From Nitrososphaerota archaeon (GTDB lineage Archaea > Thermoproteota > Nitrososphaeria > Nitrososphaerales > UBA57), in the NCBI GenBank assembly GCA_013378385.1, contig JACAFS010000027.1, positions 1 to 13,864 on the forward strand: 13,864 nt of DNA, in the 5' to 3' direction. This document shows, piece by piece, positions 370 through 13,852 of this stretch; position 1 is the first letter of the stretch, and each line of letters starts with the position of its first letter. Position numbers and translations under genes: made by a program. Below the pieces are notes generated by a model, which saw nothing but the letters and a program-made list of their open reading frames with translations, did not search any database and was not told the origin of the DNA.

Positions 370-504
370 ATCAAAAAGCATATTTTGAAAAACTTTACGG
401 AAGAGCAAATGACTACAAAGTTCGCAGATGCAATTTGTGAAAAAGAGGAGGCATTCGATGTTGAGGATTGGTTATCAACATTGGACATAGAGACACATGA
501 ATAA
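370..504 (+). other. Same-frame continuation of the upstream glycosyltransferase past the TAA at 367-369. It has 44 sense codons (IKKHILKNFTEEQMTTKFADAICEKEEAFDVEDWLSTLDIETHE) ending at TAA 502-504.
   Basis: The frame is the same as 1-369 and stays open to 502-504. That stop overlaps the next gene's ATG (497) in the way all other junctions here overlap. 'KKHILKNFTEEQM' resembles the usual GT4 C-terminal 'ar..v.e.fs.e.m' helix. This is otherwise the only sizeable 'non-coding' stretch in the window. Confidence 0.5.
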
Positions 505-2241: not shown

Positions 2242-2978
2242 AACCAAAGATAACAATAATAATTCCATGTTATAACTCTGAAAAGTGGATAGAGCAATGC
2301 GCCACCAGTTGCCTAAAGCAAACTTATGAGAACGTGGAAGTAATAGCGGTAGACAACGAGAGTAAGGACAATACTGTCAAGATACTAAATGACATAAAGA
2401 AAGAGTATCCAGAACTAATACTGTCCAGTGCTGAAAATATATATCCAAACTGCTGGGATGAAGCGAGAGAAGAGGGCTTTCGCCTAATGACAGGAGACTA
2501 CGTTATGACGATAGGCTCTGATGATTATATCGACTTGGAGTATGTCGATAACTGTATGGAAATTATACTATCCGCTCCAGATAAAATAAAGGCACTCCAG
2601 ACGCCGATACAGGGCGTCCGACAATATGGAGACAAGTTCAGTTCTACTGGAACAATTCAACATTCATATAGTTCACGAGAGCAGTTTAAGGAACTGTGTT
2701 TAACGAAGTGTCCAGTCAATACACCTTCTGTTATCTATAATGCCGAACTCTATCACAATGGGTTATTAAATACAAAGCCAGAAAAGTATGGCGGCGCAGC
2801 AGACTATGATTTATACTGTAGTCTAATAGATAATGGTATTTTTATTTACCCTGTTCCCAAGTGGCTTGGTTTTTATTATCGATGGCACCCAGAACAAGCA
2901 ACTTGGAATGTCCACAAAGAAGAAAGAAACTACGACAGAGAAATACAGGAACATTGGAAGAAAAGATGGCAGATGTAA
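2238..2978 (+). CDS. Family 2 glycosyltransferase (GT-A fold), 246 aa
   Basis: Classic GT2 N-terminus 'KITIIIPCYNSEKWIEQCATSCLKQTYENVEVIAVDNESKDNT' and a DxD-like 'IGSDDYID'. Confidence 0.85.
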   Translation: MKPKITIIIPCYNSEKWIEQCATSCLKQTYENVEVIAVDNESKDNTVKILNDIKKEYPELILSSAENIYPNCWDEAREEGFRLMTGDYVMTIGSDDYIDLEYVDNCMEIILSAPDKIKALQTPIQGVRQYGDKFSSTGTIQHSYSSREQFKELCLTKCPVNTPSVIYNAELYHNGLLNTKPEKYGGAADYDLYCSLIDNGIFIYPVPKWLGFYYRWHPEQATWNVHKEERNYDREIQEHWKKRWQM

Positions 2979-3607
2979 ATTTACTGCATAGAATAATAGA
3001 CATTGCTTACAAGAACCGTTTGTCTCATCTTGGAAGCTATTTTTCCAGCGTTGATATTATCGACGATGTTTATAGCAAGATGAACAAAGAGGATATATTC
3101 ATTCTATCTTCAGGACACTGCGCTTTGGCTCTCTACGCTGTTGTAGAAAAATACAGAGGCATTGATGCTGAGTATTTATTTGCCACCCACGGAGGACACC
3201 CTCACCGCTGTGAAAATGACGGACTATATTGCTCCACTGGCAGCTTGGGGATGGGTATCACCGCCGCTGTCGGAAGAGCAATAGCTAAACCAGATAGGGT
3301 AGTTCATTGTCTTATCAGCGATGGAGAATGTGCCGAAGGTAGCGTCTGGGAAAGCCTGAAGTTCATCTACGAACACAATATAAAGAATATAAAGATTTAT
3401 GTAAATGTAAACGGATACGCTGCGTATGACGCAGTTGACACTTCCTATCTAATAAAAAGACTCAAAGCTTTCTTGCCAAGCATTAATATTATACATACAG
3501 ATGTCAATGCCTTTCCTTTCCTAAGAGGATTGAACGCCCATTATCACATAATGAAAGAGGAAGATTACAAATTGGCGAAGGAGGTTCTAAATGAGAAAAG
3601 AATTTAG
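2966..3607 (+). CDS. Transketolase-family ThDP enzyme, N-terminal (PP-domain) subunit, shortened to 213 aa
   Basis: 'RLSHLGSYFSSVDIIDDVY', 'ILSSGHCALALYAVVEKY' and 'HGGHPHR...CSTGSLGMGITAAVGRAIA' match the split-transketolase N subunit. So does the ThDP/Mg motif 'SDGECAEGSVWESLKFIYEHNIKNIKIYVNVNGY' (the GDG...N motif with G->S). I chose the ATG at 2966 (MADVNLLH) because a GGAAG lies upstream. The ORF-track start at 2861 would run 118 nt inside the GT2 gene. Confidence 0.8.
   Translation: MADVNLLHRIIDIAYKNRLSHLGSYFSSVDIIDDVYSKMNKEDIFILSSGHCALALYAVVEKYRGIDAEYLFATHGGHPHRCENDGLYCSTGSLGMGITAAVGRAIAKPDRVVHCLISDGECAEGSVWESLKFIYEHNIKNIKIYVNVNGYAAYDAVDTSYLIKRLKAFLPSINIIHTDVNAFPFLRGLNAHYHIMKEEDYKLAKEVLNEKRI
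3578..3584 (+). promoter_or_regulatory. Shine-Dalgarno site (AAGGAGG) for the transketolase C subunit
   Basis: A perfect AAGGAGG lies 6 nt upstream of ATG 3591, inside the 3' end of the upstream gene. Confidence 0.6.
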
Positions 3608-4067
3608 TGAAAGATTGCACAAAGAGATGGGAATAAATAAGGACATATATCTATTGACTGGCGATTTGGGATACGGACTCTGGGACAAAATTAGAATAGA
3701 TTATCCGAATCGTTTCTATAATGTAGGCTCTTCGGAACAATTGATGCTGGGAATGGCGTCTGGCTTGGCGATGGATGGAAAGATACCAGTTGTCTATTCC
3801 ATTACTCCCTTTTTACTTTACAGACCTTTCGAGACTATAAGAAATTACGTGGATCACGAGAAGCTACCAGTTAAACTGATTGGAGGAGGTAGGGATAGGG
3901 ACTATGGATACTTAGGATTTTCCCATTGGGCAGAAGAAGACAAGGAAGTTACAAAGGTGTTTAAGAATATTAAGACTATCCATCCAGAGAGTGTAGAGTC
4001 AATGAATAAGAATTTTGATTTTGTTATCGATAAGGAAACTCCTCTGTATATGAATTTGAAACGATGA
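3591..4067 (+). CDS. Transketolase-family ThDP enzyme, pyrimidine-binding (Pyr) subunit. At 158 aa it lacks the usual C-terminal domain.
   Basis: 'YLLTGDLGYG', 'YPNRFYNVGSSEQLMLGMASGLAMDGKIPVVYSITPFLLYRPFETIRNYV' and 'LPVKLIGGG' match the split-transketolase C subunit pattern (fPeRf.nvGIaEq.mvg.AaGlA..Gk.P). The ThDP-activating Glu is kept in 'SSEQ'. There is a strong SD upstream, and the gene overlaps the N subunit by 17 nt. Confidence 0.8.
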   Translation: MRKEFSERLHKEMGINKDIYLLTGDLGYGLWDKIRIDYPNRFYNVGSSEQLMLGMASGLAMDGKIPVVYSITPFLLYRPFETIRNYVDHEKLPVKLIGGGRDRDYGYLGFSHWAEEDKEVTKVFKNIKTIHPESVESMNKNFDFVIDKETPLYMNLKR

Positions 4068-4966
4068 GAATATTATTTACATCCAATAAAACATATCGTG
4101 GCTCAATAGACGGTGGTTGGTGGTATTTTTATTTACCGCTAATGGACATGGGACATGAGGTATATTTTTATGACACTGTTTCAGGGGATGATAAAACATA
4201 TTCAGAAATAATAGAGACGTTCAAACCAGATTTGATATTCTGCATCATGACTGGTGATGTAGGAATAGCTCCATTGGAGCCGTGGCAGGACATCTTGAAT
4301 GAGACTAAGACTGGCAGAACAAAAACATTCAACTGGTTCTGTGATGACACTTGGAGATATGATAATTTCTCCAAAAATGCGTGTCATTATTTTAATGTCT
4401 GCTCCACTCCTGAAAACCCAAGAGTTGCAGATTATAAGAAAGATGGATACGATAATATAATTGTTGCTAATTGGCACGCCAACTCAAAGTTTTATGAAGC
4501 AAAAGCATATGAAGATAAGAACACGGACATTTCTTTTATAGGCTATCTGACTGCAACGAGGAAATCGTTTTTCAACAGAGTTGACTTGCCAATCACTTTC
4601 CTAAGCGGAATAACTCAAGAAGAACTTTTTGCTGCCCATACTACGACTAAAATAGGCATAAACTTGTCCCACAACGACAATGACACTCAAGGCAAGACTC
4701 AAATGAAGCAGAGAATGTTCGAAGTTCCCGCTGGCGGAGGGATGCTATTGACTCAATATCACGAGGGAATCGAAGACTATTATAAAATTGACAGCGAGAT
4801 AGTTACTTTTAAAGATGCTGATGAGTTTTGCAAAAAGGCAAAGTTCCTAATGGACAATCCCAATGTCAGTAAAAATATAGCTGAGAGGGGATACAGAAGA
4901 TTTATTAGGGAACACGATTCGTCCGTTAGGTTGAACCAAGTATTGCAAGAGATTGGAAAACTGTGA
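4064..4966 (+). CDS. CgeB-like glycosyltransferase (Glyco_trans_1_2-type), 300 aa. It is the second member of this family in the window.
   Basis: 'ISFIGYLTATRKSFFNRV', 'GINLSHND...QRMFEVPAGGGMLLTQ' and 'IVTFKDADEFCKKAKFLMDNPNVSKNIAERGYRRFIREHDSSVRLNQVL' follow the CgeB C-terminal domain pattern. It starts with an ATGA overlap and ends with a GTGA overlap. Confidence 0.65.
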   Translation: MRILFTSNKTYRGSIDGGWWYFYLPLMDMGHEVYFYDTVSGDDKTYSEIIETFKPDLIFCIMTGDVGIAPLEPWQDILNETKTGRTKTFNWFCDDTWRYDNFSKNACHYFNVCSTPENPRVADYKKDGYDNIIVANWHANSKFYEAKAYEDKNTDISFIGYLTATRKSFFNRVDLPITFLSGITQEELFAAHTTTKIGINLSHNDNDTQGKTQMKQRMFEVPAGGGMLLTQYHEGIEDYYKIDSEIVTFKDADEFCKKAKFLMDNPNVSKNIAERGYRRFIREHDSSVRLNQVLQEIGKL

Positions 4967-5805
4967 ATATTCTCATTACAGGATCAAAAGGATTTATAGG
5001 CAAAGAATTGTCAAGATACTTTAGCGAAGAGCATAATGTAATCTCCACAGATAGGACAACTCTTGATCCAACTAAACGCGAAAGTGTAAAAAGCTTCTTC
5101 GACAATAACAAAATAGATGTTGTCATCCACGCCGCAGTGAAGGGCGGGAAAAGAGGGCATCAGGAAAGTATCGAAGACTTGTACGAAAATTTGCTTATGT
5201 TTGAAAACCTTAGTAATTTTTCAAATCACTATAAGGCTATGTTCAATTTTGGCTCTGGTGCAGAATTTGACAGAAGAATGGAAATAAAACTATCAATAGA
5301 AAGTGAAATAGAAAGTCGTCTTCCGTCGGACTACTATGGATTGGCTAAAAATCTTATAACTCGTAAAATAAATCACTTAGATTCCAATATCTATAATCTA
5401 AGGCTATTTGGATGCTTCGGAGAATATGAAGAACCTCAGAGACTACTAAGAGCAACATACGACAAGATAGTCAAAGGCGAAAGCCCTAATGTTCACAATG
5501 ATAAGTGGATGGACTACTTTTATGCACAGGATATCGGAAGAGTCATAGAGTATATTGTAAATAATATTGAGAAAGATATTCCCAAGGACATAAATCTGTG
5601 TTATAATGAGAAATACAGACTAAGCGACTTAGTTTATAAAATAAAAAACTTGACGGAATCCAATTGCGATGTTATAATATATAATAACCAAATTGGAAGT
5701 TTGTCTTATACGGGCGATTCTACAGAATTAGATAGCCTAAATATAGCCCTGATGGGCATTGACATTGGAGTTGAAAAGTGTCTGAAAAGTTGGAGCAAAT
5801 ACTAG
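4963..5805 (+). CDS. Extended-SDR NDP-sugar reductase or epimerase/reductase (RmlD / GDP-fucose-synthase-like), 280 aa, GTG start
   Basis: The Rossmann motif 'ILITGSKGFIGKEL' begins at residue 3. 'DRTTLDPTKRESVKSFFDNNKIDVVIHAAVKGG' resembles the RmlD/Fcl pattern 'r..lD..d...v.......pd.VihaAa.vgg'. The catalytic YxxxK is present in 'DYYGLAKN'. Confidence 0.75.
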   Translation: MNILITGSKGFIGKELSRYFSEEHNVISTDRTTLDPTKRESVKSFFDNNKIDVVIHAAVKGGKRGHQESIEDLYENLLMFENLSNFSNHYKAMFNFGSGAEFDRRMEIKLSIESEIESRLPSDYYGLAKNLITRKINHLDSNIYNLRLFGCFGEYEEPQRLLRATYDKIVKGESPNVHNDKWMDYFYAQDIGRVIEYIVNNIEKDIPKDINLCYNEKYRLSDLVYKIKNLTESNCDVIIYNNQIGSLSYTGDSTELDSLNIALMGIDIGVEKCLKSWSKY

Positions 5806-7106
5806 ACTTAGTATCTGAGTATGTTAGTGAAAAGGATGATGGATGGAAAGCTGGCGAAGATTGGGTTAGTTATTCTGGACCTCAATTTGATGATAAAGAG
5901 TACAGGGCAGCAATTGAAGTCCTACTGAGCGGCTGGTTAATCTTTGGAGAGAAGTCTAGAGAATTTGAAAAGACATTTTCGCCGCACTTAGGCAAAGCAC
6001 AGGGGTGCCTAACCAATTCGGGCTCTTCCGCCAATCTTCTTGCCGTAAGCGCTCTGCGCTCAAAGAATGGATTTAATCTCCCAGAAGGTTCAAAGATAAT
6101 TACGCCAGTTGTGTGTTTTCCTACGACAATAAATCCAATCATTCAAAATGGATTTGAACCAGTTTTCGTAGATGTGACTCTTCCTGATTTAAATTTAGAC
6201 TTAGATCAAGTAGAGGCTATACTTGAATCTGATCCAGATATCAGGGGGATAATGTTTGCTCATGTTCTTGGAAACCCTCCAGACATGGACAGATTGATGG
6301 GGTTGATTAAAAAACACGAACTCATCTTTGTTGAAGACGCTTGTGACGCTCTCGGTTCATTTTATGATGGCAGAAAGTTGGGCTCATTCGGAGATATTTC
6401 CACTTGCTCGTTCTTTCCAGCCCATCACATGACTATGGGCGAGGGTGGATTTGTAGCAACAGATAACGTTCGACTAAACAAGGCAGTTACGAGCATTAGA
6501 GACTGGGGTAGGGCTTGCTATTGTAACACTGCTAAACCTGGTAATGTAACTGGCGGGACAGCTTGTGGAAACAGGTTCAAGAATTGGTTGACTGGAATGC
6601 CAGAAGCCGTTTACGATCATCGATATGTTTTTGACGAGATAGGGTACAACCTAAAGCCACTAGATTTACAAGCAGCCATGGGGTTGAAGCAATTAGATAA
6701 ATTGCCAGATTTCGACGCCGCACGACGAAAAAACTTCTCAAGGCTGTACGAGATATTCAAACCATATGAGAAATATCTATACCTACCAGAAGCCAACGAA
6801 AAGGCAGATCCATGTTGGTTCGCCTTCCTAATGACGGTTAAAGAAGGTTCCCCGTTTAACAGAGGAAATATCGTTTCTCATTTCGAGAAAAACAAGATTC
6901 AAACTCGTTCTTATTTCGCTGGAAATATTTTAGCTCACCCTGGTTACAATCACTTAGCAGAGCCGTATGGTGACTTGGGAGATATGTTCCCAGTTGCCAA
7001 GATAGTCACGTTCAATTCATTCTTTTTAGGAACTTTCATAGGACTGACTGAAGAAAAATTAGATTACATACAAAGCGTTGCTGACTCCTTTTTCGGAGAA
7101 CTGTGA
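5778..7106 (+). CDS. rfbH: NDP-4-keto-6-deoxyhexose 3-dehydrase, RfbH/DdhC (E1) type. PMP-dependent, with a putative [2Fe-2S] site; 442 aa, GTG start.
   Basis: It is collinear with my recollection of RfbH/E1 along its whole length (LDLVSEY..., SGWLIFGEKSREFEKTF, NSGSSANLLAVSAL, CFPTTINPIIQNGFEPVFVDV, VEDACDALG, SFFPAHHMTMGEGG, IRDWGRACYC, YDHRY.F..IGYNLKP.DLQAA, LP.A.EKADPCWF.F, QTR..FAGN). His216 sits where aminotransferases have the Schiff-base Lys. The Cys pattern is C189-X57-C247-X1-C249-X13-C263. GGAG at 5767-5770 lies 7 nt before the GTG. Confidence 0.85.
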   Translation: MSEKLEQILDLVSEYVSEKDDGWKAGEDWVSYSGPQFDDKEYRAAIEVLLSGWLIFGEKSREFEKTFSPHLGKAQGCLTNSGSSANLLAVSALRSKNGFNLPEGSKIITPVVCFPTTINPIIQNGFEPVFVDVTLPDLNLDLDQVEAILESDPDIRGIMFAHVLGNPPDMDRLMGLIKKHELIFVEDACDALGSFYDGRKLGSFGDISTCSFFPAHHMTMGEGGFVATDNVRLNKAVTSIRDWGRACYCNTAKPGNVTGGTACGNRFKNWLTGMPEAVYDHRYVFDEIGYNLKPLDLQAAMGLKQLDKLPDFDAARRKNFSRLYEIFKPYEKYLYLPEANEKADPCWFAFLMTVKEGSPFNRGNIVSHFEKNKIQTRSYFAGNILAHPGYNHLAEPYGDLGDMFPVAKIVTFNSFFLGTFIGLTEEKLDYIQSVADSFFGEL

Positions 7107-8053
7107 TGAAAGTGGTATATGTAACGGGATGTCTTGGATTCATAGGCTCATACGTTACTAGGAAGTGTCTCGAACGTGGTTGGATGGTGTATGGCATCGA
7201 TAAATGTACCTACGCCGCCAACAGGAATCTCATAGAAGAGTTTTCGGAATACTCAAACTTCACCTTCTTAGAAGAAGATATCAAAGACTTGAAGCATCTT
7301 TATGACTGCGACTACGTTATAAACACCGCTGCCGAGTCTCATGTTGGAAATAGTATCATAGATAGCGGGGAATTCATCAGTAGTAATATTGTGGGAGTTA
7401 GAAATCTTCTGGACTTGATTCGCAACAGACCAGAGAACTGCAACCGACGCCCCATCCTATTCCACTTCAGCACCGATGAGGTTTATGGCGACATTGAGGA
7501 CGGAGAGCATACTGAGGAACACTTGCTCCACCCAAGCAATCCATACTCTGCGTCTAAAGCGTCCGCAGACATGCTCGTTTTGGCATGGGCGAGAACATAT
7601 AACGTAGAGTACATTATTTTACGCCCCACAAACAATTATGGCATTGGACAATATCCAGAAAAACTCATCCCTCTCTCGGTAAAGAACATGATTAGAGGAA
7701 GGAAGGTTAGATTACACAATGGCGGTACGCCTATTCGTAACTGGCTTCACGCCGATGATACGGCAGAATCAGTAATGACAATCATCGATTCTGGCAATGT
7801 TAATGAGATATACAATGTTGCAGGAGGATTCGAACAAACGAATGCAGAGACAGTCAAAAAGATAGTGTCCGTTCATCACAACACTGATGATTGGAAACAA
7901 TATGTAGATTTCTCATATTCCAGACAAGGGCAAGATGTACGTTACGCCCTAAATGACGAAAAGTTGAGAGCCCTCGGCTGGAGCCCTAAAAAGGTTTTTG
8001 ATGAAGAGATAAAATCAATCGTTGAATACTACAAGAACAATTTTATTTGGTAA
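7106..8053 (+). CDS. rfbB: NDP-glucose 4,6-dehydratase, dTDP-glucose 4,6-dehydratase (RmlB/RfbB) type
   Basis: 'VYVTGCLGFIGSYV', 'INTAAESHV', 'FHFSTDEVYGD', 'PYSASKASADMLV', 'RPTNNYGIGQYPEKLIPL' and 'GGTPIRNWLHADDTAESV' match the RmlB signature blocks (STDEVYG, YSASKA, NNYGP.Q.PEKLIP, G.G...R.WL.V.DH). GGAGA at 7095-7099 favours ATG 7106 (TGATG junction). GTG 7103 is an alternative start. Confidence 0.88.
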   Translation: MKVVYVTGCLGFIGSYVTRKCLERGWMVYGIDKCTYAANRNLIEEFSEYSNFTFLEEDIKDLKHLYDCDYVINTAAESHVGNSIIDSGEFISSNIVGVRNLLDLIRNRPENCNRRPILFHFSTDEVYGDIEDGEHTEEHLLHPSNPYSASKASADMLVLAWARTYNVEYIILRPTNNYGIGQYPEKLIPLSVKNMIRGRKVRLHNGGTPIRNWLHADDTAESVMTIIDSGNVNEIYNVAGGFEQTNAETVKKIVSVHHNTDDWKQYVDFSYSRQGQDVRYALNDEKLRALGWSPKKVFDEEIKSIVEYYKNNFIW

Positions 8054-8925
8054 TGCTTATGTGGTACAAAGGTTTAAAAAGAAAAATAATAGACATTCCT
8101 TTATCGGTAGACTCTCCTCCTTGGCTTTCATCAACCCCATTACCAGAGAATCAATTGGCAGATCTTGGAAGAAGAGGAGATTTTGTTAATAAGTTTGAAG
8201 ATTATCAAATAGATAATAATCTTTCAGAATTGGTTAGCGGCAAGAGAATAGCCTATGTGTGTCCGTCTCCTCACTTGAGAGGGATGAAAATGGGCGAATA
8301 CATTGATTCGTTTGATTTAGTAGTTCGTGTTAACCAAGCTTTCCATATGCAAGAAGAGGATTGGGAAGATTATGGAAAAAGAACAGATATTTTAATGAAT
8401 TGCCTGAATTGTAATAAAATTGCAGCACTTGAAAAAGATATGGATTTCGCAAGAGACATGAAGTTTATTGTTTGTCCTATGGTTTCTATGTGGGATATAC
8501 AGAGAGTAGATGACTTTCTTGATAAAATCGGCGTACCTTGGCATAATGTAAGCGATGGATATCTATTTAAGATATTCAAAGAAGTGGGAACAACTTGTAA
8601 TACTGGACTGACTGGCGTTATGACGCTTCTGAACTATGACATAAAAGAGCTATATCTAACTGGAATGACTTTCTTCAATATGAACAAGTTTGGGCAAATA
8701 TATTATGGCAAATACCATAATGAAGCAGTCGCTAATAATAATTTTAGAGAAGATTCTGGAAAAGTTCCTAACTTTGCTGATTTGAGAATCGACATACACC
8801 AGCAACAGCCACAGATTAATTATTTCCACAAGATGGTGTATTTCCACTATGGAAAGAAGTTGACTTTAGATGAATATCTTACTAAAAACTTTGACTCCAC
8901 TATACAGAAGGTTAAAAATAAATGA
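8053..8925 (+). CDS. Sialyltransferase-like transferase with GT29-type sialyl-motif L/S/III-like blocks. The likely donor is a CMP-activated ulosonic acid.
   Basis: 'KRIAYVCPSPHLRGMKMGEYIDSFDLVVRVNQAF....EDYGKRTDIL' parallels sialyl motif L (C.vVGN...L.....G..ID..D.V.R.N.AP......DVG.KTT). 'CNTGLTGVMTLLNYDIKELYLTGM' parallels motif S (PSTG......A...CD.V.vYGF). 'IYYGKYH' parallels motif III (HYY[DE]). I chose ATG 8053 (TAATG junction). TTG 8047 and ATG 8059 are alternatives. That it is a CDS is secure; the function is a motif-level guess. Confidence 0.5.
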   Translation: MLMWYKGLKRKIIDIPLSVDSPPWLSSTPLPENQLADLGRRGDFVNKFEDYQIDNNLSELVSGKRIAYVCPSPHLRGMKMGEYIDSFDLVVRVNQAFHMQEEDWEDYGKRTDILMNCLNCNKIAALEKDMDFARDMKFIVCPMVSMWDIQRVDDFLDKIGVPWHNVSDGYLFKIFKEVGTTCNTGLTGVMTLLNYDIKELYLTGMTFFNMNKFGQIYYGKYHNEAVANNNFREDSGKVPNFADLRIDIHQQQPQINYFHKMVYFHYGKKLTLDEYLTKNFDSTIQKVKNK

Positions 8926-10046
8926 AACTTGTAGCAATGATACCTGCTCGACTGGGCAGCAAAAGAATACCCAAGAAAAACATAAGACTGCTCAATGGCA
9001 TTCCTCTTATTTCTTACATTATTCGTGCCGTAAAAGAAAGCCAATGTTTTGATGAGATATATGTAAACACAGAGTCAGATATAATCGGAGAGATAGCCTT
9101 GTCCGAGGGTGTCAAGTTTTACAAAAGACCGTCTCACTTATCAACAGACTCCGCAACAAACGATGATTTTTCTTTAGACTTTATAAAGAATGTTGAGTGC
9201 GACGTCATGGTACAGGTTCTAGCCACTTCTCCTTTTCTATCTGTAAAAGATATCAAATCTTTTGCAAAGATGGCTATTGACGGAGATTACGACACTTTAG
9301 TTTCTCTGAACAAGCAACAGATTGAATGCGTCTACGACGGCAATCCTATCAATTTTGATAAGAAGAAGCCTTCGCCACCGTCACAGCACGTAACGCCAGT
9401 CGGAGCATATGCCTGTGGTTTGATGGCTTGGAGAAGCGAGAATTACAAAGACAATATGGAGAAGTATGGCTGCGGATATCACGGAGGCGACGGTAAAGTG
9501 GGATATTATACCCTAACTGGGCACTCTACTATTGACGTTGACGAGGAAGAAGACTTCCAGTTGGCAGAATTAGTCGCAAGACACTTGGCGTCCAGACAGA
9601 ATTATGAACCAAGGTATTACGGAGACGGACTGCATGTAGAAGTTGACGTGCCGAGTATATTAGCCAAGGATGGAGTAAACACTAATGATTTACATTCAGC
9701 GAATAGTGAAACCCCAGTAAGTGTGAAAGAGATTATAAGCAGTTTTGACGACTCAGTTTCTTGGAGCAAGAGAGTAGTTAATACTGAGAATAACAGCGCC
9801 ACATTGATACATCAGATGCCAGGAGAAGGCAATCGAGCGCACTATCATCCAGAATGGAATGAGTGGTGGTACATCATTGACGGACAATGGGAATGGAACA
9901 TCGAGGGCGAAAAAATAATAGTTAAAAAAGATGATATAGTTTTTATACCAAAAAATAGAGTACATCACATTACCGCTGTCGGAGACAAGCCTGCCATAAG
10001 GCTGGCGGTTAGCCGAGAAGATGTAGAACATGTGTATCCCGAGTAA
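8922..10046 (+). CDS. Fusion protein: an N-terminal acylneuraminate/ulosonate cytidylyltransferase domain (NeuA/CTP_transf_3 type, about 8922-9590) and a C-terminal cupin domain (about 9705-10043)
   Basis: The N-terminus 'KLVAMIPARLGSKRIPKKNIRLLNGIPLISYIIRAVKES.CFDEIYVNTESD', 'KRPSHLSTDSAT' and 'HSTIDVDEEEDFQLAELV' form the NeuA-family signature. The C-terminus has two-motif cupin signatures 'GEGNRAHYHPEWNEWWYIIDG' and 'DDIVFIPKNRVHHI'. It starts with an ATGA overlap. Confidence 0.8.
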   Translation: MKLVAMIPARLGSKRIPKKNIRLLNGIPLISYIIRAVKESQCFDEIYVNTESDIIGEIALSEGVKFYKRPSHLSTDSATNDDFSLDFIKNVECDVMVQVLATSPFLSVKDIKSFAKMAIDGDYDTLVSLNKQQIECVYDGNPINFDKKKPSPPSQHVTPVGAYACGLMAWRSENYKDNMEKYGCGYHGGDGKVGYYTLTGHSTIDVDEEEDFQLAELVARHLASRQNYEPRYYGDGLHVEVDVPSILAKDGVNTNDLHSANSETPVSVKEIISSFDDSVSWSKRVVNTENNSATLIHQMPGEGNRAHYHPEWNEWWYIIDGQWEWNIEGEKIIVKKDDIVFIPKNRVHHITAVGDKPAIRLAVSREDVEHVYPE

Positions 10047-10052
10047 AATAAA

Positions 10053-10934
10053 ATGAATAAATCTGAAATTAATGAAATATCTATGGAAGATACAATATTT
10101 TTAATAGGTTCTGGACCTTCTTTAAATAAAATAGACATGTCCTTGTTGAAAGATGTAAATACAATGTCACTGAATAGACAGTATATTGCTTATGAAGAGT
10201 GGGGATTTTTTCCAACATATTACACCATTATAGATAGAAAACTTGTAAAAGCAATATTCATGAAGGACTTGTGTCCGCTCCTAATAGAAAATCCAAAATG
10301 TACAATAGAGAAGTATTTTGTACTCCAACCACCTTTAGACGCCGCTGATGTGCCTCGCGATATGTTAGCGATGTCTTATTCAAGAAACAAATCAAATAAG
10401 TCCTTCGACATCACAGAAGAATTTATTCAAGGTGATGACGGTCCACTCTGGTATTCTCACGAAGATGTTTTGATAATGCCTGAAAGAGCGGGCTGCGATG
10501 TGCGAATATCAGATTATAATATTGAAAAACTAATTTCAAATCCGAAGATGTGTTCGACTCTAGAAAATTTCTCAGCCTCGACTCTCGATTTTTGTGGTAA
10601 CGGGGGAGCCTTTGCGACAACTCTTTGTGCCCATTTAGGCTTTAAAAGAGTGGTTCTTTTGGGAATCGATGCTTTTTATTCTGGTCGTGATTGTTCAGTA
10701 AAAGCGGGCATTGACTTGGAACATTTTCATCCTCAATATTTTGATCCAGAAACATTCCCAGAAGGCGAGACTCAAGGAAGTCCAGATAAATCCAATGGAA
10801 TACTGCCGTGGAAAAAACTATCTGAGATGCAACCAGATGTTTCTTATCAAATATTATCTTGCACGCCTGATTCTATTATAAACGATTATTTGGATTATGT
10901 GAATCTTGAGGATTTGTTGGGGAGTTATGCTTGA
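10053..10934 (+). CDS. Second sialyltransferase-like protein (CstII/GT42-like, or DUF115/Maf-like fold), 293 aa
   Basis: 'IFLIGSGPSLNKIDMSLLKDVNTMSLNRQY' resembles the CstII N-terminus as I recall it (VIIAGNGPSLKEIDYSRLPNDFDVFRCNQFY). 'GNGGAFATTLCAHLGFKRVVLLGIDAFY' resembles CstII 'ITSGVYMCAVAIALGYKEIYLSGIDFYQ'. 'YQILSCTPDSIINDYLDYV' resembles 'IKLYCLCPNSLLANFIELA'. An alternative ATG lies at 10083. Confidence 0.5.
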   Translation: MNKSEINEISMEDTIFLIGSGPSLNKIDMSLLKDVNTMSLNRQYIAYEEWGFFPTYYTIIDRKLVKAIFMKDLCPLLIENPKCTIEKYFVLQPPLDAADVPRDMLAMSYSRNKSNKSFDITEEFIQGDDGPLWYSHEDVLIMPERAGCDVRISDYNIEKLISNPKMCSTLENFSASTLDFCGNGGAFATTLCAHLGFKRVVLLGIDAFYSGRDCSVKAGIDLEHFHPQYFDPETFPEGETQGSPDKSNGILPWKKLSEMQPDVSYQILSCTPDSIINDYLDYVNLEDLLGSYA

Positions 10935-11614
10935 ATCTTGATTTCAAAAATAAGACAGTTTTAGTCACTGGAGCCACCAGAGGTATCGGAAAATGCATTT
11001 CTGATGATTTCAAGGCATTGGGAGCAGATGTCATATCTTTTCCAAGTTCGATTTATGATCTCACAGACAGAAAAGAACTGCATGATTTTATAGAACATAT
11101 AGAGACTCTTCAGGTAGATATTTGTATAAACAACGCAGGTATAAATAAAATTAATTATGTAGAAGATGTTCTCGAAGAGGATTACGACAAAATAATGCAC
11201 ATCAACGCCAAAGCGCCATTCATGATATCTCAGGCAGTGTCTAAGGCAATGAAGGCGAGAGAATACGGTAGAATAGTCAATATAGCATCCATATTTGGAC
11301 ATTGTACTAAAGAAAAAAGATCTTGTTATACAACTTCTAAATTTGCACTCGTCGGGATGACAAAGACTCTCGCAGTCGAAATGGCTCCTTATAACGTCCT
11401 CGTCAATTCTGTGTCACCTGGATTCACCGCAACTGAACTGACAACAAGGGTTTTAGGAACAGAGGGAATTGCTGAGATGTGCAAACAAGTTCCAATGAAG
11501 AGAATGGCGATGCCAGATGAGATATCAAAAGTAGTTTTATTTCTATCCAGCGAACACAACACGTATCTTACTGGACAAAATATAATTGTTGACGGAGGCT
11601 TCGTAAATGTTTAG
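10931..11614 (+). CDS. Classical short-chain dehydrogenase/reductase (FabG / PtmA-like), 227 aa, TTG start
   Basis: 'TVLVTGATRGIGKCI' (TGxxxGxG), 'NNAGI', the Ser...YxxxK set in 'NIASIFG...YTTSKFALVGM', and 'SVSPGF'. GGGGAG at 10919-10924 lies 6 nt before TTG 10931, and no in-frame ATG precedes the Rossmann motif. Confidence 0.85.
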   Translation: MNLDFKNKTVLVTGATRGIGKCISDDFKALGADVISFPSSIYDLTDRKELHDFIEHIETLQVDICINNAGINKINYVEDVLEEDYDKIMHINAKAPFMISQAVSKAMKAREYGRIVNIASIFGHCTKEKRSCYTTSKFALVGMTKTLAVEMAPYNVLVNSVSPGFTATELTTRVLGTEGIAEMCKQVPMKRMAMPDEISKVVLFLSSEHNTYLTGQNIIVDGGFVNV

Positions 11615-12683
11615 CGTCGATTCGCACAAGGGAAAATACCACGTCGTGTTCGGCACGCCTTTGGAAGAAGCTGTCAAGAGTTGTATTCAGGATACTGATT
11701 TTTTAGTAATAGACAAATGCGTATATGATAAGTATCCCATTTTCCACCGCCTAATTGATTCCGAAAGGATTTACATTCTTAGGGCGGGAGAAGAGACTAA
11801 GACTTTGCAAACATGTCAAGAGCTTATATCTATTTTGATATCCAGCGGATTCAAGCGAAATCACAAACTTGTAGCAGTTGGGGGAGGAATTACGCAAGAC
11901 ATAACGTCTTTTACGGCGTCTGTTCTTTTCCGAGGCATTGGGTGGAAGTTCTTTCCAACCACCTTGTTAGCGCAAGCAGACAGTTGTATCGGCAGCAAAA
12001 CATCAATCAATTTCTCAAACACTAAGAATCTATTAGGATCTTTCCACCCACCAGAGCAAATTATATGTTGCACCGAGTTCTTAAAAACACTTCCTCGCAA
12101 TGATATTAAATCTGGAATCGGCGAGATGCTGCATTATTATATTTATGCCGACAGCAGTCTTCTAGAGGACATGACGAGAGAATATAATAAACTTGTAGAA
12201 AATCCGTGCGAACTGATGGGGCGATACATCGAAGAGAGTTTGTCTATAAAAAGAGAGATGATACAGCGAGATGAGTTTGACAAAGGAGAACGAAGGGTTT
12301 TTAATTATGGGCATACGTTTGGACACGCTATCGAGGCTTTGAGTAACTACGAGGTAAGCCACGGACTGGCTGTCACTATAGGAATGGACATTGCCAACTA
12401 TGTTGCCTTAAAAAACAACATCATTGATGAAGAAACCTATCTCTATTTTCATAAGCACTTAAAGAATAACTTGACGCCATACTACATAGATAATGACAGA
12501 ATTGAGGATTATTACAATCTGTTAATGAAAGATAAAAAGAATACAGATAGTGATATTGTCTGCATCTTGCCGTATGGTATAAAAGATTTAAGAATAACTA
12601 AAGTTAGCGATAGTAACACAGATATATCAATTGATAAACTTAAGAGAGACTTGGTGGACTATATGGAGGATAAATGTCTTTAG
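11607..12683 (+). CDS. 3-dehydroquinate synthase-family enzyme (sugar-phosphate cyclase superfamily), 358 aa
   Basis: 'GEETKTLQTC...R..KLVAVGGGITQDITSFTASVLFRGIGWKFFPTTLLAQADSCIGSKTSINFSNTKNLLGSFHPP', 'SGIGEMLHY', 'IKREMIQRDEFDKGERRVFNYGHTFGHAIE' and 'SHGLAVTIGM' track the DHQS blocks (GGG..gD..GF.A....RGi....PTTLLaqvDSS.GGKt.iN....KN..G.F..P; LN.GHT.gHAiE; HGeAV.iGm). GGAGG at 11594-11598 lies 8 nt upstream of the ATG. Confidence 0.8.
   Translation: MFSVDSHKGKYHVVFGTPLEEAVKSCIQDTDFLVIDKCVYDKYPIFHRLIDSERIYILRAGEETKTLQTCQELISILISSGFKRNHKLVAVGGGITQDITSFTASVLFRGIGWKFFPTTLLAQADSCIGSKTSINFSNTKNLLGSFHPPEQIICCTEFLKTLPRNDIKSGIGEMLHYYIYADSSLLEDMTREYNKLVENPCELMGRYIEESLSIKREMIQRDEFDKGERRVFNYGHTFGHAIEALSNYEVSHGLAVTIGMDIANYVALKNNIIDEETYLYFHKHLKNNLTPYYIDNDRIEDYYNLLMKDKKNTDSDIVCILPYGIKDLRITKVSDSNTDISIDKLKRDLVDYMEDKCL
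12665..12670 (+). promoter_or_regulatory. Shine-Dalgarno-like GGAGGA for the class III aminotransferase gene
   Basis: GGAGGA ends 3 nt before ATG 12674, inside the end of the DHQS-like gene. The spacing is short but usable. Confidence 0.4.
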
Positions 12684-13852
12684 CAAGAAGCACTAAATTT
12701 GGAATCAATGTGGATTTTGAAAAGAGTCATGGACTGTATTTATATGATAAGAATGCCCATAGGGAACTTCTTGACTTCTTCGGAATGTATGCTTCGTTGC
12801 CGTTGGGTTATAATCATCCGATATTCAAAACCCCTGAATTCGTTGATGAGTATTTGAGAGCATCTTCTTTAAAAATAAATAACTGTGAATTTGTATCAGA
12901 TGAAACTCTTGAATTTGATAGAATGTTTACTGAATATGCGGGCGTCGGTATTTTTAAAAACATTCATTATAGTTGCACTGGAGCCCTCGCAGTAGAGGCG
13001 GCTATAAAAACATGCATTCAATACAAGGGCTTTCACGAACCGAAAATACTATCTTTCCATAATAGTTTCCATGGAATTAACAGTTACGGAGGATTTATAA
13101 CCTCAAGGTTTCCAGGTGTAGACAAGAGATTAAACGGATTTCCCGAGAATTTCTCTATGAAGATAGCTCCAGATTTACAAAAGGTTGAAGAGAGTTTAAG
13201 GAATAATGACATTACGTGCCTCTTAGTCGAACCGATACAGTGCAGTGCTGGCGACATTCATTATGATAAGATGTTTTTTAAGGAATTGAGAAGGTTGTGC
13301 GATAAATACGATGTACCTCTTGTGTTTGATGAGATACAGATTGGATTTGGAGGAACAGGAAAGCTATGGTTCTTTCAACATATCGATGTGACGCCAGATA
13401 TTGTCATTTTTGGAAAGAAAACTCAACTTTCTGGCATCATGGTAAAGGATGAATTTTCACAGATATTCTCACGAGAAAGCAGCGTAAGGCTTGAGGTAAC
13501 TTGGGACGGCGACATTTCCGACATGATAAGATGCAAATATGTGATCAAAGCTTATAATGAATACGACATATTAAGCAATGTAAATACAATGTCTAATCTA
13601 CTGTCGTCAAAACTATCAGAAATGCCAGAAATACTAAACTTGAGAAATTGTGGATTAATCTTCGGATTTGATTTGAAAAATAGCGAGTTTAGAGATATAA
13701 TGATAGGTGAACTATATGACAATGGGCTGATTTGCAACAAGACTGGCTCTAATTCAATTAGACTAAGACCAAGTTTAAATTTGACTGAGAGAAATATAGA
13801 ACAAGCAGTCGCGATATTTGAGAAGTCATTCGCAAAGAGGAAAGAAATATAA
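12674..13852 (+). CDS. Class III PLP aminotransferase, L-lysine 6-aminotransferase (LAT)-like, 392 aa
   Basis: 'DFEKSHGLYLYDKNAHRELLDFFGMYASLPLGYNHP', 'GALAVEAAIK', 'FHGINSYG', 'EPIQCSAGD', 'LVFDEIQIGFGGTGKLWFFQH', 'VTPDIVIFGKKTQLSGIM' and 'TWDGDISDM' parallel the mycobacterial LAT sequence as I recall it (...DIVAFGKKTQVCG..., STWGGNLTDM). The presumed PLP lysine lies in FGKK (13415-13420). Confidence 0.8.
   Translation: MSLARSTKFGINVDFEKSHGLYLYDKNAHRELLDFFGMYASLPLGYNHPIFKTPEFVDEYLRASSLKINNCEFVSDETLEFDRMFTEYAGVGIFKNIHYSCTGALAVEAAIKTCIQYKGFHEPKILSFHNSFHGINSYGGFITSRFPGVDKRLNGFPENFSMKIAPDLQKVEESLRNNDITCLLVEPIQCSAGDIHYDKMFFKELRRLCDKYDVPLVFDEIQIGFGGTGKLWFFQHIDVTPDIVIFGKKTQLSGIMVKDEFSQIFSRESSVRLEVTWDGDISDMIRCKYVIKAYNEYDILSNVNTMSNLLSSKLSEMPEILNLRNCGLIFGFDLKNSEFRDIMIGELYDNGLICNKTGSNSIRLRPSLNLTERNIEQAVAIFEKSFAKRKEI

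What the first reader, a model, noticed from the sequence alone, without database searches (positions are those of the whole stretch)
8053..10934. CMP-sugar synthetase sandwiched between two sialyltransferase-like genes, with no NeuB/KdsA-type condensing enzyme in view
A NeuA-family cytidylyltransferase (8922-10046) is flanked by two different proteins with sialyltransferase-like block structure (8053-8925 and 10053-10934). One junction is an ATGA overlap and the other a 6-nt spacer.

The NeuA/KdsB family activates 2-keto-3-deoxy ulosonic acids (sialic, legionaminic and pseudaminic acids, Kdo) as CMP-sugars. GT29, GT42 and Maf/DUF115-like enzymes use such donors. This arrangement therefore argues for synthesis and transfer of a CMP-activated acidic sugar, possibly at two positions or onto two acceptors.

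The window has none of the canonical Neu/Pse/Leg enzymes: no NeuB-like synthase, no NeuC/LegG epimerase and no DegT aminotransferase with an intact lysine. The neighbours are instead an SDR, a DHQS-like enzyme and a LAT-like aminotransferase. Either the ulosonic acid is provided elsewhere (host genome or downstream genes), or the activated molecule is not a standard nonulosonic acid.
Basis: partly seen in the sequence, partly recalled or inferred. Interest (0 to 1): 0.7.

Follow-up and report, generated by a model that had tools for sequence, protein, structure and literature searches.

The report
Phage CMP-sugar module lacking NeuB
An uncultured marine phage carries a conserved gene set that seems to build, CMP-activate and transfer a sialic-acid-like sugar. 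It does this without the usual condensing enzyme, using a dehydroquinate-synthase-like enzyme instead, so it may be an undescribed route to this class of sugars.

Summary
Genes at 8053-8925, 8922-10046 and 10053-10934 are real, with an ATGA overlap and a 6-nt spacer as described.

- **g11** has a GT29 sialyltransferase fold.
- **g13** has a Cst-I/Cst-II (GT42)/Maf-like fold.
- **g12** is a NeuA-type cytidylyltransferase with intact catalytic motifs.

No NeuB, NeuC or KdsA is found in the window, in the 3.4 kb downstream of a 95%-identical contig, or in 35 of 37 related viral loci.

The trio belongs to a larger conserved module: GT29-like, CTP_transf_3+cupin, an optional GT42-like gene, SDR, AroB-related enzyme (TIGR04425), LAT-like aminotransferase, a second MptE-like gene, and a GmhA-like SIS. 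The core (SDR, AroB-like, CTP_transf_3, SIS) recurs in 22 bacterial loci, including Leptospira, SAR116 and Bacteroidota, and a partly sampled SAR86 contig carries it without SIS. In bacteria it usually adds GFO and PGDH-like dehydrogenases.

Natural gene fusions tie the parts to one pathway: GT29+CTP3, GFO+CTP3+SIS, CTP3+SIS and SIS+cupin.

My best reading is a NeuB-independent route to an aminated CMP-activated sugar acid. The sugar's identity remains unknown. I found no literature on this cassette.

The parts
8053..8925 (+). g11: GT29-like, sialyltransferase-fold glycosyltransferase (290 aa). It is the transferase most often found with the module.
   Evidence: - PF00777 scores 24.9 bits, cut-off 23.
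- The profile hits ST3Gal-I over sialylmotif L at E=3.2e-5.
- AF2 pLDDT is 96.2. The top 30 Foldseek PDB hits are all GT29, with E from 1.6e-7 and TM 0.40-0.52.
- Invariant His249 and other invariant residues are listed.
- It is present in 26 of 37 viral module loci and in none of the genomic loci sampled.
8922..10046 (+). g12: bifunctional NeuA/PseF-type CMP-sugar synthetase (about residues 1-225) fused to a metal-binding cupin (about residues 286-374).
   Evidence: - CTP_transf_3 scores 89.8 bits and Cupin_2 57.3 bits.
- The best solved relative is mouse CMP-Neu5Ac synthetase, 1qwj, at 2.5e-22.
- The PseF and KdsB equivalog models score far below their cut-offs.
- Catalytic residues are conserved across 46 viral homologues.
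- The cupin has the full GX5HXHX4EX6G motif (sequence).
- The two domains are separate adjacent genes in L017 and L018.
- A SAR86 single-cell genome carries a full-length homologue at 53% identity.
10053..10934 (+). g13: GT42 (Cst-I/Cst-II)/Maf-like sialyltransferase-fold protein (293 aa). It is a variable, optional slot in the module.
   Evidence: - PF01973 scores 27.1 bits, below the cut-off of 34.6. phrog_4603 hits at 4.7e-7.
- The profile hits Cst-II at 8.2e-7.
- AF2 pLDDT is 76, with a poorly predicted insert at residues 94-178.
- Foldseek gives Cst-I 1.2e-6, Cst-II 8e-6 and Maf 1.9e-3.
- It is absent from L005 and L009.
- It is the least conserved gene against L001: 90.5% nucleotide identity, versus 93.5-98.4% for the other seven genes compared.
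10931..11614 (+). g14: FabG-like SDR, translationally coupled to g15.
   Evidence: - adh_short_C2 scores 159 bits.
- It is 52% and 48% identical to the SDR immediately upstream of the AroB-related gene in Leptospira and in a Pseudomonadota MAG.
- An SDR is present near the AroB-like gene in 130 of 154 loci.
11607..12683 (+). g15: AroB-related sugar-phosphate phospholyase/cyclase (TIGR04425 family).
   Evidence: - TIGR04425 scores 406.4 bits, cut-off 400. aroB TIGR01357 scores 267.8, below its cut-off of 305.
- It is closer to solved DHQS (162 bits) than to DOIS (129), ValA (90) or DDGS (73).
- All DHQS substrate and metal positions are conserved except Lys197, which is His.
12674..13852 (+). 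g16: LAT-like class III (omega) aminotransferase.
   Evidence: - Aminotran_3 scores 200.6 bits. LAT_fam scores 250, below its cut-off of 520.
- M. tuberculosis LAT 2cin scores 175 bits, and the catalytic-Lys motif FGKKTQ is conserved.
- It is present in 27 of 37 viral module loci.
5778..8053 (+). Context only: g09, an RfbH-like 3-dehydrase, and g10, a 4,6-dehydratase. They form a separate deoxyhexose branch of the same glycan locus.
   Evidence: RfbH NF011936 scores 459 bits, cut-off 423. The dTDP-glucose 4,6-dehydratase model scores 301, below its cut-off of 365.

Best explanation
The three genes are the activation and transfer end of a conserved, self-contained phage glycosylation module.

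**Shown:**
- g12 is an intact NeuA-type CTP-dependent synthetase fused to a metal cupin.
- g11 and g13 have the two known folds of CMP-sugar-using sialyltransferases, GT29 and GT42/Maf.
- The module has no NeuB, KdsA or NeuC.
- The same core (SDR, AroB-related enzyme, CTP_transf_3, GmhA-like SIS) recurs in distant bacteria, and natural fusions join its parts.

**Inferred, in pathway order:**
1. A sugar phosphate, probably a C7 sugar such as sedoheptulose-7-P, or a DAHP-like ulosonate phosphate, enters through the SIS isomerase encoded just past the window end.
2. The AroB-related enzyme g15 keeps the residues that bind carboxylate, phosphate, Zn and NAD in DHQS. It carries out NAD-dependent oxidation and phosphate elimination.
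3. The coupled SDR g14 reduces the resulting ketone.
4. The LAT-like transaminase g16 installs an amino group.
5. The cupin of g12 isomerises or anomerises the product.
6. The N-terminal domain of g12 makes the CMP ester.
7. g11, g13 and a second MptE-like gene downstream transfer the sugar onto a glycan built by the neighbouring GT1, GT2 and GT4 enzymes.

The acceptor is unknown. It could be a virion protein or a host surface glycan.
For: **Fold and profile evidence**
- The transferases.
- The synthetase motifs.

**Absence of condensing enzymes**
- None in the window or in its near-identical relatives.
- None among the recurrent gene clusters of 37 viral module loci.

**Module conservation across diverged loci.** Protein identity ranges from 52% to 99%, and L016 keeps the genes in a rearranged order.

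**Census of 154 loci**
- In 37 viral loci, CTP3 and SDR co-occur with SIS in 34, the class III aminotransferase in 27, GT29-like in 26 and MptE-like in 18.
- In 22 genomic loci they co-occur with SIS in 15, GFO in 19 and 2-hydroxyacid dehydrogenase in 16.

**Independent bacterial contexts** with the same SDR/AroB-like pair next to CTP_transf_3.

**Fusion proteins**
- GT29+CTP_transf_3.
- GFO+CTP3+SIS, CTP3+SIS and SIS+cupin.

**Enzyme integrity**
- g15 active-site conservation.
- g16 catalytic Lys.
Against: - No enzyme was assayed and the sugar is not identified.
- The phage module lacks the GFO and PGDH-like dehydrogenases that accompany the core in bacteria. It is unclear where a C1 carboxylate would come from unless the substrate is already an acid such as DAHP, or the host supplies those steps.
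- If g15 cyclises as DHQS does, the product would be a carbocyclic acid. That would be a poor glycosyl donor.
- The SDR/AroB-like pair also occurs without any CTP_transf_3, in the type B cassette of 58 loci. Its product is therefore not always CMP-activated.
- The bacterial cassettes' cytidylyltransferases are only about 25% identical to g12, and about half are KdsB-like.
- The roles I assign to DHQS residues come from my memory of the A. nidulans structure papers. Those papers could not be read here.
Confidence: 0.55

Rival explanations
1. Salvage model. g12 activates a standard ulosonic acid made by the host (Kdo, or Neu/Leg/Pse). g11 and g13 transfer it. The adjacent SDR, AroB-like enzyme and aminotransferase form a separate pathway, for example to an aminocyclitol or a modified deoxy sugar.
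For: - g12 is most like NeuA and PseF.
- The SDR/AroB-like pair also works without a cytidylyltransferase in the 58 type B loci.
- The phage lacks the oxidoreductases needed to make a carboxylate from a neutral sugar phosphate.
- Phage auxiliary genes often encode only part of a host pathway (general knowledge).
Against: - CTP3 and the SDR/AroB-like pair are linked across 59 loci in phages and distant bacterial phyla.
- Fusions join CTP3 to SIS, GFO and cupin.
- g12 falls far below the PseF and KdsB equivalog cut-offs: 89 bits against 205.7, and 23 bits against 155.2.
- The order CTP3-cupin then aminotransferase is kept in SAR86.
Confidence: 0.25
2. Carba-sugar model. g15 is a true cyclase and makes a quinate-like carbocyclic hydroxy acid from a DAHP-like substrate. 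That acid is reduced or aminated and esterified to CMP at its tertiary hydroxyl. The transferases then act as pseudo-glycosyltransferases, or the CMP ester has some other role.
For: - g15 keeps every DHQS catalytic and substrate-binding position except Lys197, and is closest to true DHQS.
- NCBI names the family 'phospholyase (cyclizing)'.
- The bacterial cassettes carry GFO/IDH/MocA-family oxidoreductases, a family that includes inositol dehydrogenases and which is common in cyclitol pathways.
- Quinate is the carba-analogue of a 3-deoxy-2-ulosonic acid (chemical reasoning).
Against: - A saturated carbocyclic tertiary CMP ester cannot form an oxocarbenium-like transition state. The known pseudo-glycosyltransferases use allylic GDP-valienol (established chemistry).
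- Up to three sialyltransferase-fold genes per locus argues for a real glycosyl donor.
Confidence: 0.12
3. This is an ordinary nonulosonic-acid locus, and its neuB/neuC or pse/leg genes simply lie elsewhere in the phage genome.
For: - Only about 10 kb of flank on either side could be inspected. The related contigs reach 65-190 kb.
- Two of the 37 viral module loci do have a NeuB nearby.
Against: - None in the window, in L001 or L005 downstream, or in 35 of 37 viral loci within 7 kb.
- None in the four bacterial contexts looked up directly, and NeuB is present in only 1 of the 22 genomic module loci.
- The upstream DegT-like and dehydratase genes are RfbH/RmlB-type, not LegB/LegC or PseB/PseC.
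Confidence: 0.08

Closest known systems
Bacterial CMP-nonulosonic acid systems: Neu5Ac, legionaminic and pseudaminic acid clusters with NeuA/LegF/PseF, used by Cst-I/II (GT42) or Maf transferases
   Same: - A CTP_transf_3 synthetase with the same catalytic motifs.
- Transferases with the Cst/Maf fold.
- Clustering with sugar aminotransferases and dehydrogenases.
- Known Leg clusters also place an SDR (PtmA) and an oxidoreductase (PtmF) next to LegF (PMC4481668).
   Different: - No NeuB-type condensing enzyme, no NeuC/LegG, and no PseB/PseC or LegB/LegC.
- Instead it has an AroB-related enzyme, a GmhA-like SIS, a class III (not DegT) aminotransferase and a cupin fused to the synthetase.
- g12 scores far below the PseF and KdsB equivalog cut-offs.
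Eukaryotic and eukaryotic-virus GT29 sialyltransferases (ST3Gal, ST6Gal, ST8Sia; poxvirus and herpesvirus enzymes)
   Same: - The same fold: the top 30 PDB and the top BFVD hits.
- Sialylmotif L is recognisable.
- By eye there are motif-S-like NTG...TG(M)TFF and an invariant His.
   Different: - About 12-18% identity and TM only 0.4-0.5.
- Encoded by a prokaryote-style phage operon.
- No signal anchor or disulfide pattern was examined.
- The donor is probably not Neu5Ac.
- Other uncultured-phage proteins annotated as GT29 exist in UniProt, but I know of none that has been characterised.
3-Dehydroquinate synthase and the sugar-phosphate cyclase superfamily (DOIS, EEVS, DDGS); NCBIfam TIGR04425
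   Same: g15 passes the TIGR04425 cut-off. It keeps the DHQS positions Asp146, Lys152, Asn162, Glu194, Lys250, Arg264, Asn268, His271, His275, His287 and Lys356.
   Different: - It scores below the aroB equivalog cut-off.
- It has Lys197 replaced by His.
- It is always paired with an SDR and sits in glycan loci rather than aromatic amino acid genes.
- Product unknown. TIGR04425 is a 'hypothetical equivalog', and I found no paper on it.
Kdo8N pathway of Shewanella (KdnB oxidase and KdnA aminotransferase, then KdsB); from my own knowledge
   Same: The logic is the same: a ulosonic acid is modified by an oxidoreductase and an aminotransferase, CMP-activated, and used without a dedicated NeuB.
   Different: - KdnB is an Fe-alcohol dehydrogenase rather than a DHQS-type enzyme with phosphate-binding residues.
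- KdnA is not a LAT-like class III enzyme.
- Neither comparison was tested here.

Membership tests
GT29 sialyltransferase (Pfam PF00777 / CAZy GT29), for g11 | Score at or above the Pfam gathering threshold | tested here: met
   24.9 bits against a cut-off of 23. The margin is small and the match covers only residues 71-144. Most family members carry a precomputed PF00777 hit.
GT29 sialyltransferase, for g11 | GT-A variant 2 (sialyltransferase) fold | tested here: met
   pLDDT is 96.2. The top 30 Foldseek PDB hits are all GT29, with E from 1.6e-7 to 1.7e-4 and TM 0.40-0.52.
GT29 sialyltransferase, for g11 | Sialylmotifs L, S, III and VS, including the catalytic His | tested here: inconclusive
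   Motif L aligns with ST3Gal-I. A motif-S-like NTGLTG...LTGMTFF and the invariant His249 were seen by eye. They were not placed against a ligand-bound structure.
GT29 sialyltransferase, for g11 | Uses a CMP-activated ulosonic acid donor | not testable with these tools
   The only support is indirect: the gene is adjacent to and translationally coupled with g12, and a GT29+CTP_transf_3 fusion protein (P0116) exists.
GT42 (Cst-I/Cst-II) / Maf, MptE-like PF01973, for g13 | Score at or above the Pfam gathering threshold | tested here: not met
   27.1 bits against a cut-off of 34.6, covering residues 6-71 only.
GT42 / Maf, for g13 | Profile similarity to and shared fold with Cst-I/II or Maf | tested here: met
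   The profile hits Cst-II at 8.2e-7 over about 190 residues. Foldseek gives Cst-I 1.2e-6, Cst-II 8e-6 and Maf 1.9e-3, ahead of the MptE kinase at 3.3e-3. The model is of moderate quality, pLDDT 76.
NeuA/KdsB cytidylyltransferase (CTP_transf_3), for g12 | Pfam threshold and catalytic motifs (P-loop Arg/Lys, Mg-binding Asp pair) | tested here: met
   89.8 bits against a cut-off of 22.6. Lys19, Asn20, Arg69, Thr102-x-Pro104, Gln155, Asp205 and Asp207 are conserved in 42-46 of 46 viral homologues and match mouse CMP-Neu5Ac synthetase.
PseF, KdsB or other cytidylyltransferases of known specificity, for g12 | NCBIfam equivalog cut-off | tested here: not met
   PseF scores 89.3 against 205.7. kdsB scores 22.9 against 155.2. 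The KdsB subfamily models score 55 or less against 193-281.
Canonical NulO biosynthesis locus (neu/pse/leg) | A NeuB-family condensing enzyme in the locus | tested here: not met
   - No PF03102 or DAHP_synth hit in any window protein.
- None downstream in L001 or L005.
- NeuB is present in 2 of 37 viral and 1 of 22 genomic module loci.
3-dehydroquinate synthase AroB (TIGR01357), for g15 | Equivalog cut-off | tested here: not met
   267.8 bits against a cut-off of 305.
TIGR04425 AroB-related putative sugar phosphate phospholyase (cyclizing), for g15 | Model cut-off, plus an SDR encoded alongside it | tested here: met
   406.4 bits against a cut-off of 400. An SDR is present in 130 of 154 loci, and it sits immediately upstream in the window and in every locus I inspected by gene order. 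The function of this family is itself unknown.
L-lysine 6-transaminase (TIGR03251), for g16 | Equivalog cut-off | tested here: not met
   250.3 bits against a cut-off of 520.8. The class III fold and the catalytic Lys are present.

The most novel reading that the evidence does not exclude
Marine phages, and bacteria as distant as Leptospira, SAR86, SAR116 and Bacteroidota, share an undescribed route to a CMP-activated sugar acid that does not use NeuB or KdsA. A GmhA-like isomerase, an AroB-type NAD-dependent phosphate-eliminating enzyme and a coupled SDR build the backbone, probably a C7 or other non-nonulosonic ulosonic acid, aminated in the phage version. Phage-specific GT29-like enzymes then attach it. 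If so, this would be a new class of sialic-acid-like sugars and a first biochemical role for prokaryotic-virus GT29 proteins.
Probability: 0.4. Interest if true: 0.85.

Novelty: new variant of a known kind. Interest (0 to 1): 0.72.

Why it matters
All CMP-activated ulosonic acids with described biosynthetic routes come from PEP-dependent condensation by NeuB or KdsA. They are major determinants of cell-surface recognition, immune evasion and phage adsorption.

A widespread cassette that makes a CMP-sugar by a DHQS-type enzyme instead would:
- add a new branch to nucleotide-sugar biochemistry;
- give a function to NCBIfam TIGR04425 and its partner genes in O-antigen loci, Leptospira included;
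- help explain unassigned CMP-linked keto acids now being seen by mass spectrometry (bioRxiv 10.64898/2026.04.20.719630).

For phage biology, it would show that large uncultured marine phages carry complete machinery for a sialic-acid-like cap, with up to three sialyltransferase-fold enzymes. That implies remodelling of the virion or of the host surface.

The claim is directly testable, because the genes are small, soluble and clustered.

Tried and rejected
**Searches that found nothing**
- Near-identical DNA and g11 protein searches in 50,697 cultured phage records gave no match.
- g12 there hit only a Moritella NeuA at 35% identity.
- g15 there hit only ordinary aroB-like sequences at 36% identity or less.
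- The exact-protein look-up for g16 found nothing.
- The single-protein pattern scan of GTDB genomes for g11 found no relative.

**The Lys197-to-His idea**
- I first took it as the functional signature of the CMP cassette.
- I rejected that because Lys-type members sit in the same cassette in SAR86, SAR116 and Pelagibacter.

**The PtmA/PtmF idea**
- I considered the SIS+SDR pair as a PtmF/PtmA-like aminosugar-phosphate synthase.
- My memory of PtmF as an SIS protein was wrong. The Plesiomonas paper lists it as a 326-aa oxidoreductase, so I dropped the idea.

**'T4-like cyanophage'**
- The flanks of related contig L017 have DnaB-, UvsY-, gp32-, MazG- and UvsX-like genes.
- However, the recombinase is at most 31% identical to that of any cultured phage. 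I therefore claim only 'large uncultured marine phage'.

**Other checks**
- g02 (281 aa) was checked as a possible hidden KdsA-like enzyme. It has no Pfam or PDB similarity.
- Papers on DHQS and ValA active sites were not held.
- The AFDB Foldseek library was unavailable.
- Five literature searches for the cassette returned nothing relevant.
- Promoter-like and terminator-like site counts are at the level expected by chance.

Full report
**1. The observation**

The window is one tightly packed + strand array of 16 genes. Its only minus-strand ORF of 110 aa or more (10961-11302) lies inside g14.
- The g10 stop overlaps the g11 ATG at 8053.
- g11 and g12 share an ATGA overlap at 8922-8925.
- A 6-nt spacer precedes the g13 ATG at 10053.
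- g13 and g14 overlap as TTGA.

Promoter-like and terminator-like site counts are no higher than in shuffled sequence. This fits a single long transcription unit.

The window is itself a 13,864-bp NCBI metagenome contig: g15 has a 100% match whose only contig has that length. A Tara Oceans contig, L001, is 95% identical in DNA over the whole window and extends 3.4 kb further downstream.

**2. The three proteins**

*g12*
- It matches CTP_transf_3 strongly (89.8 bits).
- Its closest solved relative is mouse CMP-Neu5Ac synthetase (2.5e-22).
- The residues Lys19, Asn20, Arg69, Thr102-x-Pro104, Gln155, Asp205 and Asp207 are conserved across 46 viral homologues and match the mouse enzyme. The domain looks catalytically competent.
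- It falls far below the curated PseF and KdsB cut-offs, so no known specificity can be assigned.
- The cupin has the complete metal-binding motif GX5HXHX4EX6G (sequence).
- In the related loci L017 and L018 the synthetase and the cupin are separate adjacent genes.

*g11*
- It just passes the GT29 Pfam threshold: 24.9 bits against a cut-off of 23.
- A profile of 51 homologues aligns sialylmotif L with ST3Gal-I at E=3e-5.
- An AlphaFold model with pLDDT 96 has GT29 sialyltransferases as all of its top 30 PDB matches, followed by Cst-II.
- In the viral structure library it matches poxvirus, herpesvirus and mimivirid GT29 proteins. It also matches an uncultured-phage protein annotated as GT29.

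*g13*
- It is below the MptE-like threshold: 27.1 bits against 34.6.
- Its family profile aligns about 190 residues with Cst-II at 8e-7.
- Its model (pLDDT 76) matches Cst-I and Cst-II best, then Maf, then the MptE kinase.

The two transferases have no detectable sequence similarity to each other.

**3. Nothing canonical nearby**

- No window protein hits NeuB, DAHP/KDO8P synthase, NeuC, or PseB/PseC or LegB/LegC-type models above threshold.
- The upstream DegT-family protein is an RfbH-type 3-dehydrase, with His in place of the Schiff-base Lys.
- Downstream of the window, L001 and L005 encode a second MptE-like protein, a 194-aa GmhA-like SIS protein, two GDP-mannose-dehydratase/epimerase-type enzymes and small ORFs.
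- The unannotated 281-aa g02 has no Pfam or PDB similarity.

**4. The trio is part of a larger conserved module**

Ten IMG/VR contigs and several Tara contigs carry the same arrangement, with 52-99% protein identity to the window:
- GT29-like, CTP3(+cupin), an optional MptE-like gene, SDR, AroB-like, class III aminotransferase, MptE-like.
- L016 has the genes in a rearranged order. L005 and L009 lack g13.

Flanking genes in L017 are phage replication and recombination genes: a DnaB-like helicase, UvsY-like, gp32-like SSB, MazG and UvsX-like. However, the recombinase is at most 31% identical to that of any cultured phage. No cultured phage carries g11 or a g15-type gene. The source is therefore an uncultured marine phage group.

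**5. The AroB-related gene gives the link to bacteria**

- g15 passes NCBIfam TIGR04425, 'AroB-related putative sugar phosphate phospholyase (cyclizing)', at 406 bits against a cut-off of 400. It fails the aroB equivalog model.
- Its bacterial homologues, at 45-48% identity, sit in surface-polysaccharide loci of Leptospira alstonii, other Leptospira-type contigs and Pseudomonadota MAGs.
- In each case an SDR lies immediately upstream and is 48-52% identical to g14. Nearby are a CTP_transf_3, a GFO/IDH/MocA oxidoreductase, a PGDH-like 2-hydroxyacid dehydrogenase, usually a GmhA-like SIS, and a protein of about 600 aa of unknown family. None of these loci has a NeuB.

I then fetched 80 viral and 80 genomic loci with a profile of the family. 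I called ORFs, clustered the neighbours, and annotated the cluster representatives.

*Census results*
- An SDR is present in 130 of the 154 loci in which the AroB-like gene was found.
- Two mutually exclusive cassettes emerge.

| Cassette | Loci | Accompanying genes (loci with each) |
|---|---|---|
| Type A, viral (SDR, AroB-like, CTP_transf_3) | 37 | SIS 34, class III aminotransferase 27, GT29-like 26, MptE-like 18, NeuB 2 |
| Type A, genomic | 22 | SIS 15, GFO 19, 2-hydroxyacid dehydrogenase 16, NeuB 1, GT29-like 0 |
| Type B (SDR, AroB-like, 597-aa ThDP enzyme) | 58 | HpcH-like aldolase, FGGY kinase or HMGL-like enzymes; NeuB 10; CTP_transf_3 1 |

The closest cellular relative of g12 is a full-length CTP3-cupin fusion in a SAR86 single-cell genome, at 53% identity. 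It is followed by a class III aminotransferase 37% identical to g16.

**6. Fusion proteins link the parts**

- A distant g11 relative is a single 480-aa GT29+CTP_transf_3 protein.
- An exhaustive search with g12 found about 30-40 representative full-length CTP3-cupin fusions and many split versions.
- It also found GFO+CTP3+SIS (797 aa), GFO+CTP3, CTP3+SIS (two proteins) and SIS+cupin proteins.

These fusions place the synthetase, the cupin, the SIS isomerase and the GT29-like transferase in one pathway. They argue against the view that g12 merely salvages a host sugar.

**7. What the AroB-like enzyme suggests**

- g15 is closer to true DHQS than to DOIS, ValA or DDGS.
- In 122 homologues, every position I know as a DHQS substrate or metal ligand is invariant. 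These include Lys250 and Arg264, which bind the DAHP carboxylate. The numbering is that of A. nidulans and comes from memory, because the papers could not be read.
- The one exception is Lys197, which is His. That change marks a subclade only, because Lys-type members occur in the same cassette.
- This points to a substrate that, like DAHP, is a 2-ulosonate with a terminal phosphate.

For the bacterial cassette a coherent scheme follows. It is inference:
1. Sedoheptulose-7-P is isomerised by SIS to heptose-7-P.
2. GFO oxidises this to 7-phosphoheptonate.
3. The PGDH-like enzyme converts that to hept-2-ulosonate-7-P.
4. The AroB-like enzyme eliminates the phosphate and the SDR reduces the ketone.
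5. The product is CMP-activated.

The phage version lacks GFO and the 2-hydroxyacid dehydrogenase. It may start from host DAHP or rely on host enzymes. It adds a LAT-like transaminase with an intact catalytic Lys, which suits a terminal aldehyde or methyl ketone.

Whether the AroB-like enzyme cyclises cannot be decided from sequence. Cyclisation would give a carba-sugar acid, which would be a poor donor. Phosphate elimination alone would give a deoxy-keto ulosonate. The presence of up to three sialyltransferase-fold genes makes me favour the second.

One Bacteroidota cassette has two YhcH/DUF386 genes flanking its CTP3. From my own knowledge these are cupin-like proteins from sialic acid metabolism. 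This suggests the fused cupin may act as an isomerase or anomerase that feeds the synthetase.

**8. Comparison with what is known**

- The module works like a CMP-nonulosonate system in that it makes, activates and transfers a sugar. It fails the defining test of such loci, a NeuB-family synthase.
- g11 is a remote member of the GT29 fold family. g13 is a remote GT42/Maf-like protein.
- g12 is a CTP_transf_3 enzyme of unassigned specificity.
- g15 belongs to a curated family of unknown function.
- Five full-text searches found no paper on this cassette.
- A 2026 preprint reports unassigned CMP-linked higher-carbon keto acids in Magnetospirillum. It shows that the chemical space of such sugars is not exhausted. 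I found no evidence connecting those sugars to this cassette.

**9. Verdict**

- High confidence: the module exists, it is conserved, its folds are as stated, and it lacks a canonical condensing enzyme.
- Moderate confidence (0.55): it makes and transfers its own non-standard CMP-sugar.
- Low confidence: any specific structure for that sugar.

Noticed in passing
window 2966-8053 (g05-g10): An RfbH-type 3-dehydrase (459 bits, cut-off 423, His in place of Lys) sits with a 4,6-dehydratase, an RmlD-like reductase and a split transketolase (N-terminal part about 2966-3607, pyrimidine-binding part 3591-4067). This looks like a pathway to a 3,6-dideoxy sugar, or to a two-carbon-branched deoxyhexose of the yersiniose or aldgarose kind. 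No hexose-1-P nucleotidyltransferase is in the window.
   Followed up: partly
L001 13791-15186 (just beyond the window end): Immediately after g16 come a second MptE-like, sialyltransferase-fold gene (259 aa, 33.3 bits) and a GmhA-like SIS protein (194 aa). The full locus therefore has three sialyltransferase-fold genes, and the SIS belongs to the module in 34 of 37 viral loci.
   Followed up: yes
58 loci among L024-L183, e.g. L137, L139, L096: A second, CMP-free cassette shares the SDR/AroB-like pair. It pairs them with a 597-aa ThDP enzyme, an HpcH-like aldolase, an FGGY kinase or HMGL-like enzyme, and a DegT aminotransferase. NeuB is present in 10 of the 58. It occurs in both viral contigs and bacteria, including Lachnospiraceae and a cyanobacterial MAG. 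Its function is unknown.
   Followed up: partly
P0307, P0310, P0313, P0333, P0379, P0401, P0116: Natural fusion proteins were found: GFO+CTP_transf_3+SIS (797 aa), GFO+CTP3, CTP3+SIS, SIS+cupin, B12/radical-SAM+cupin and GT29+CTP_transf_3 (480 aa, next to a HAD hydrolase).
   Followed up: partly
L120 (SAR86 cluster SAG AG-920-D21) 355-8721: This is the closest cellular counterpart of the phage module. Its order is SDR, AroB-like, GFO, CTP3-cupin (53% identical to g12), class III aminotransferase (37% identical to g16), two proteins of unknown family (332 and 652 aa), and a 2-hydroxyacid dehydrogenase. It may point to the donor or host lineage.
   Followed up: partly
window 10053-10934 versus L001 10001-10873: g13 is the least conserved gene between the window and its near-identical relative. 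Nucleotide identity is 90.5%, against 93.5-98.4% for the other seven genes compared, and protein identity is 86% against 94-99.7%. It is missing altogether from L005 and L009. It looks like a variable transferase slot.
   Followed up: partly
window 11607-12683, residue His176 (GIGEMLHYY): Lys197 of DHQS is replaced by His in g15 and in all 122 closest homologues, while all the other active-site positions are invariant. Lys-type relatives occur in the same kind of cassette, so the meaning of the change is unclear.
   Followed up: yes
window 497-1342 (g02): A conserved 281-aa protein lies between glycosyltransferase genes. It is 45-98% identical in related loci but has no Pfam, PHROG or PDB sequence match.
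   Followed up: partly
L126 (Parafilimonas MAG) 8247-9858: Two DUF386/YhcH-family genes flank the CTP_transf_3 gene of a bacterial type A cassette. This may be a counterpart of the cupin fused to g12.
   Followed up: no
L017 6700-8821 and L023 6507-7295, 12789-13649: Related phage loci add GT25, GT11 and GT10 (fucosyltransferase-type) genes and a GDP-mannose 4,6-dehydratase. This suggests a fucosylated glycan capped by the CMP-sugar.
   Followed up: no
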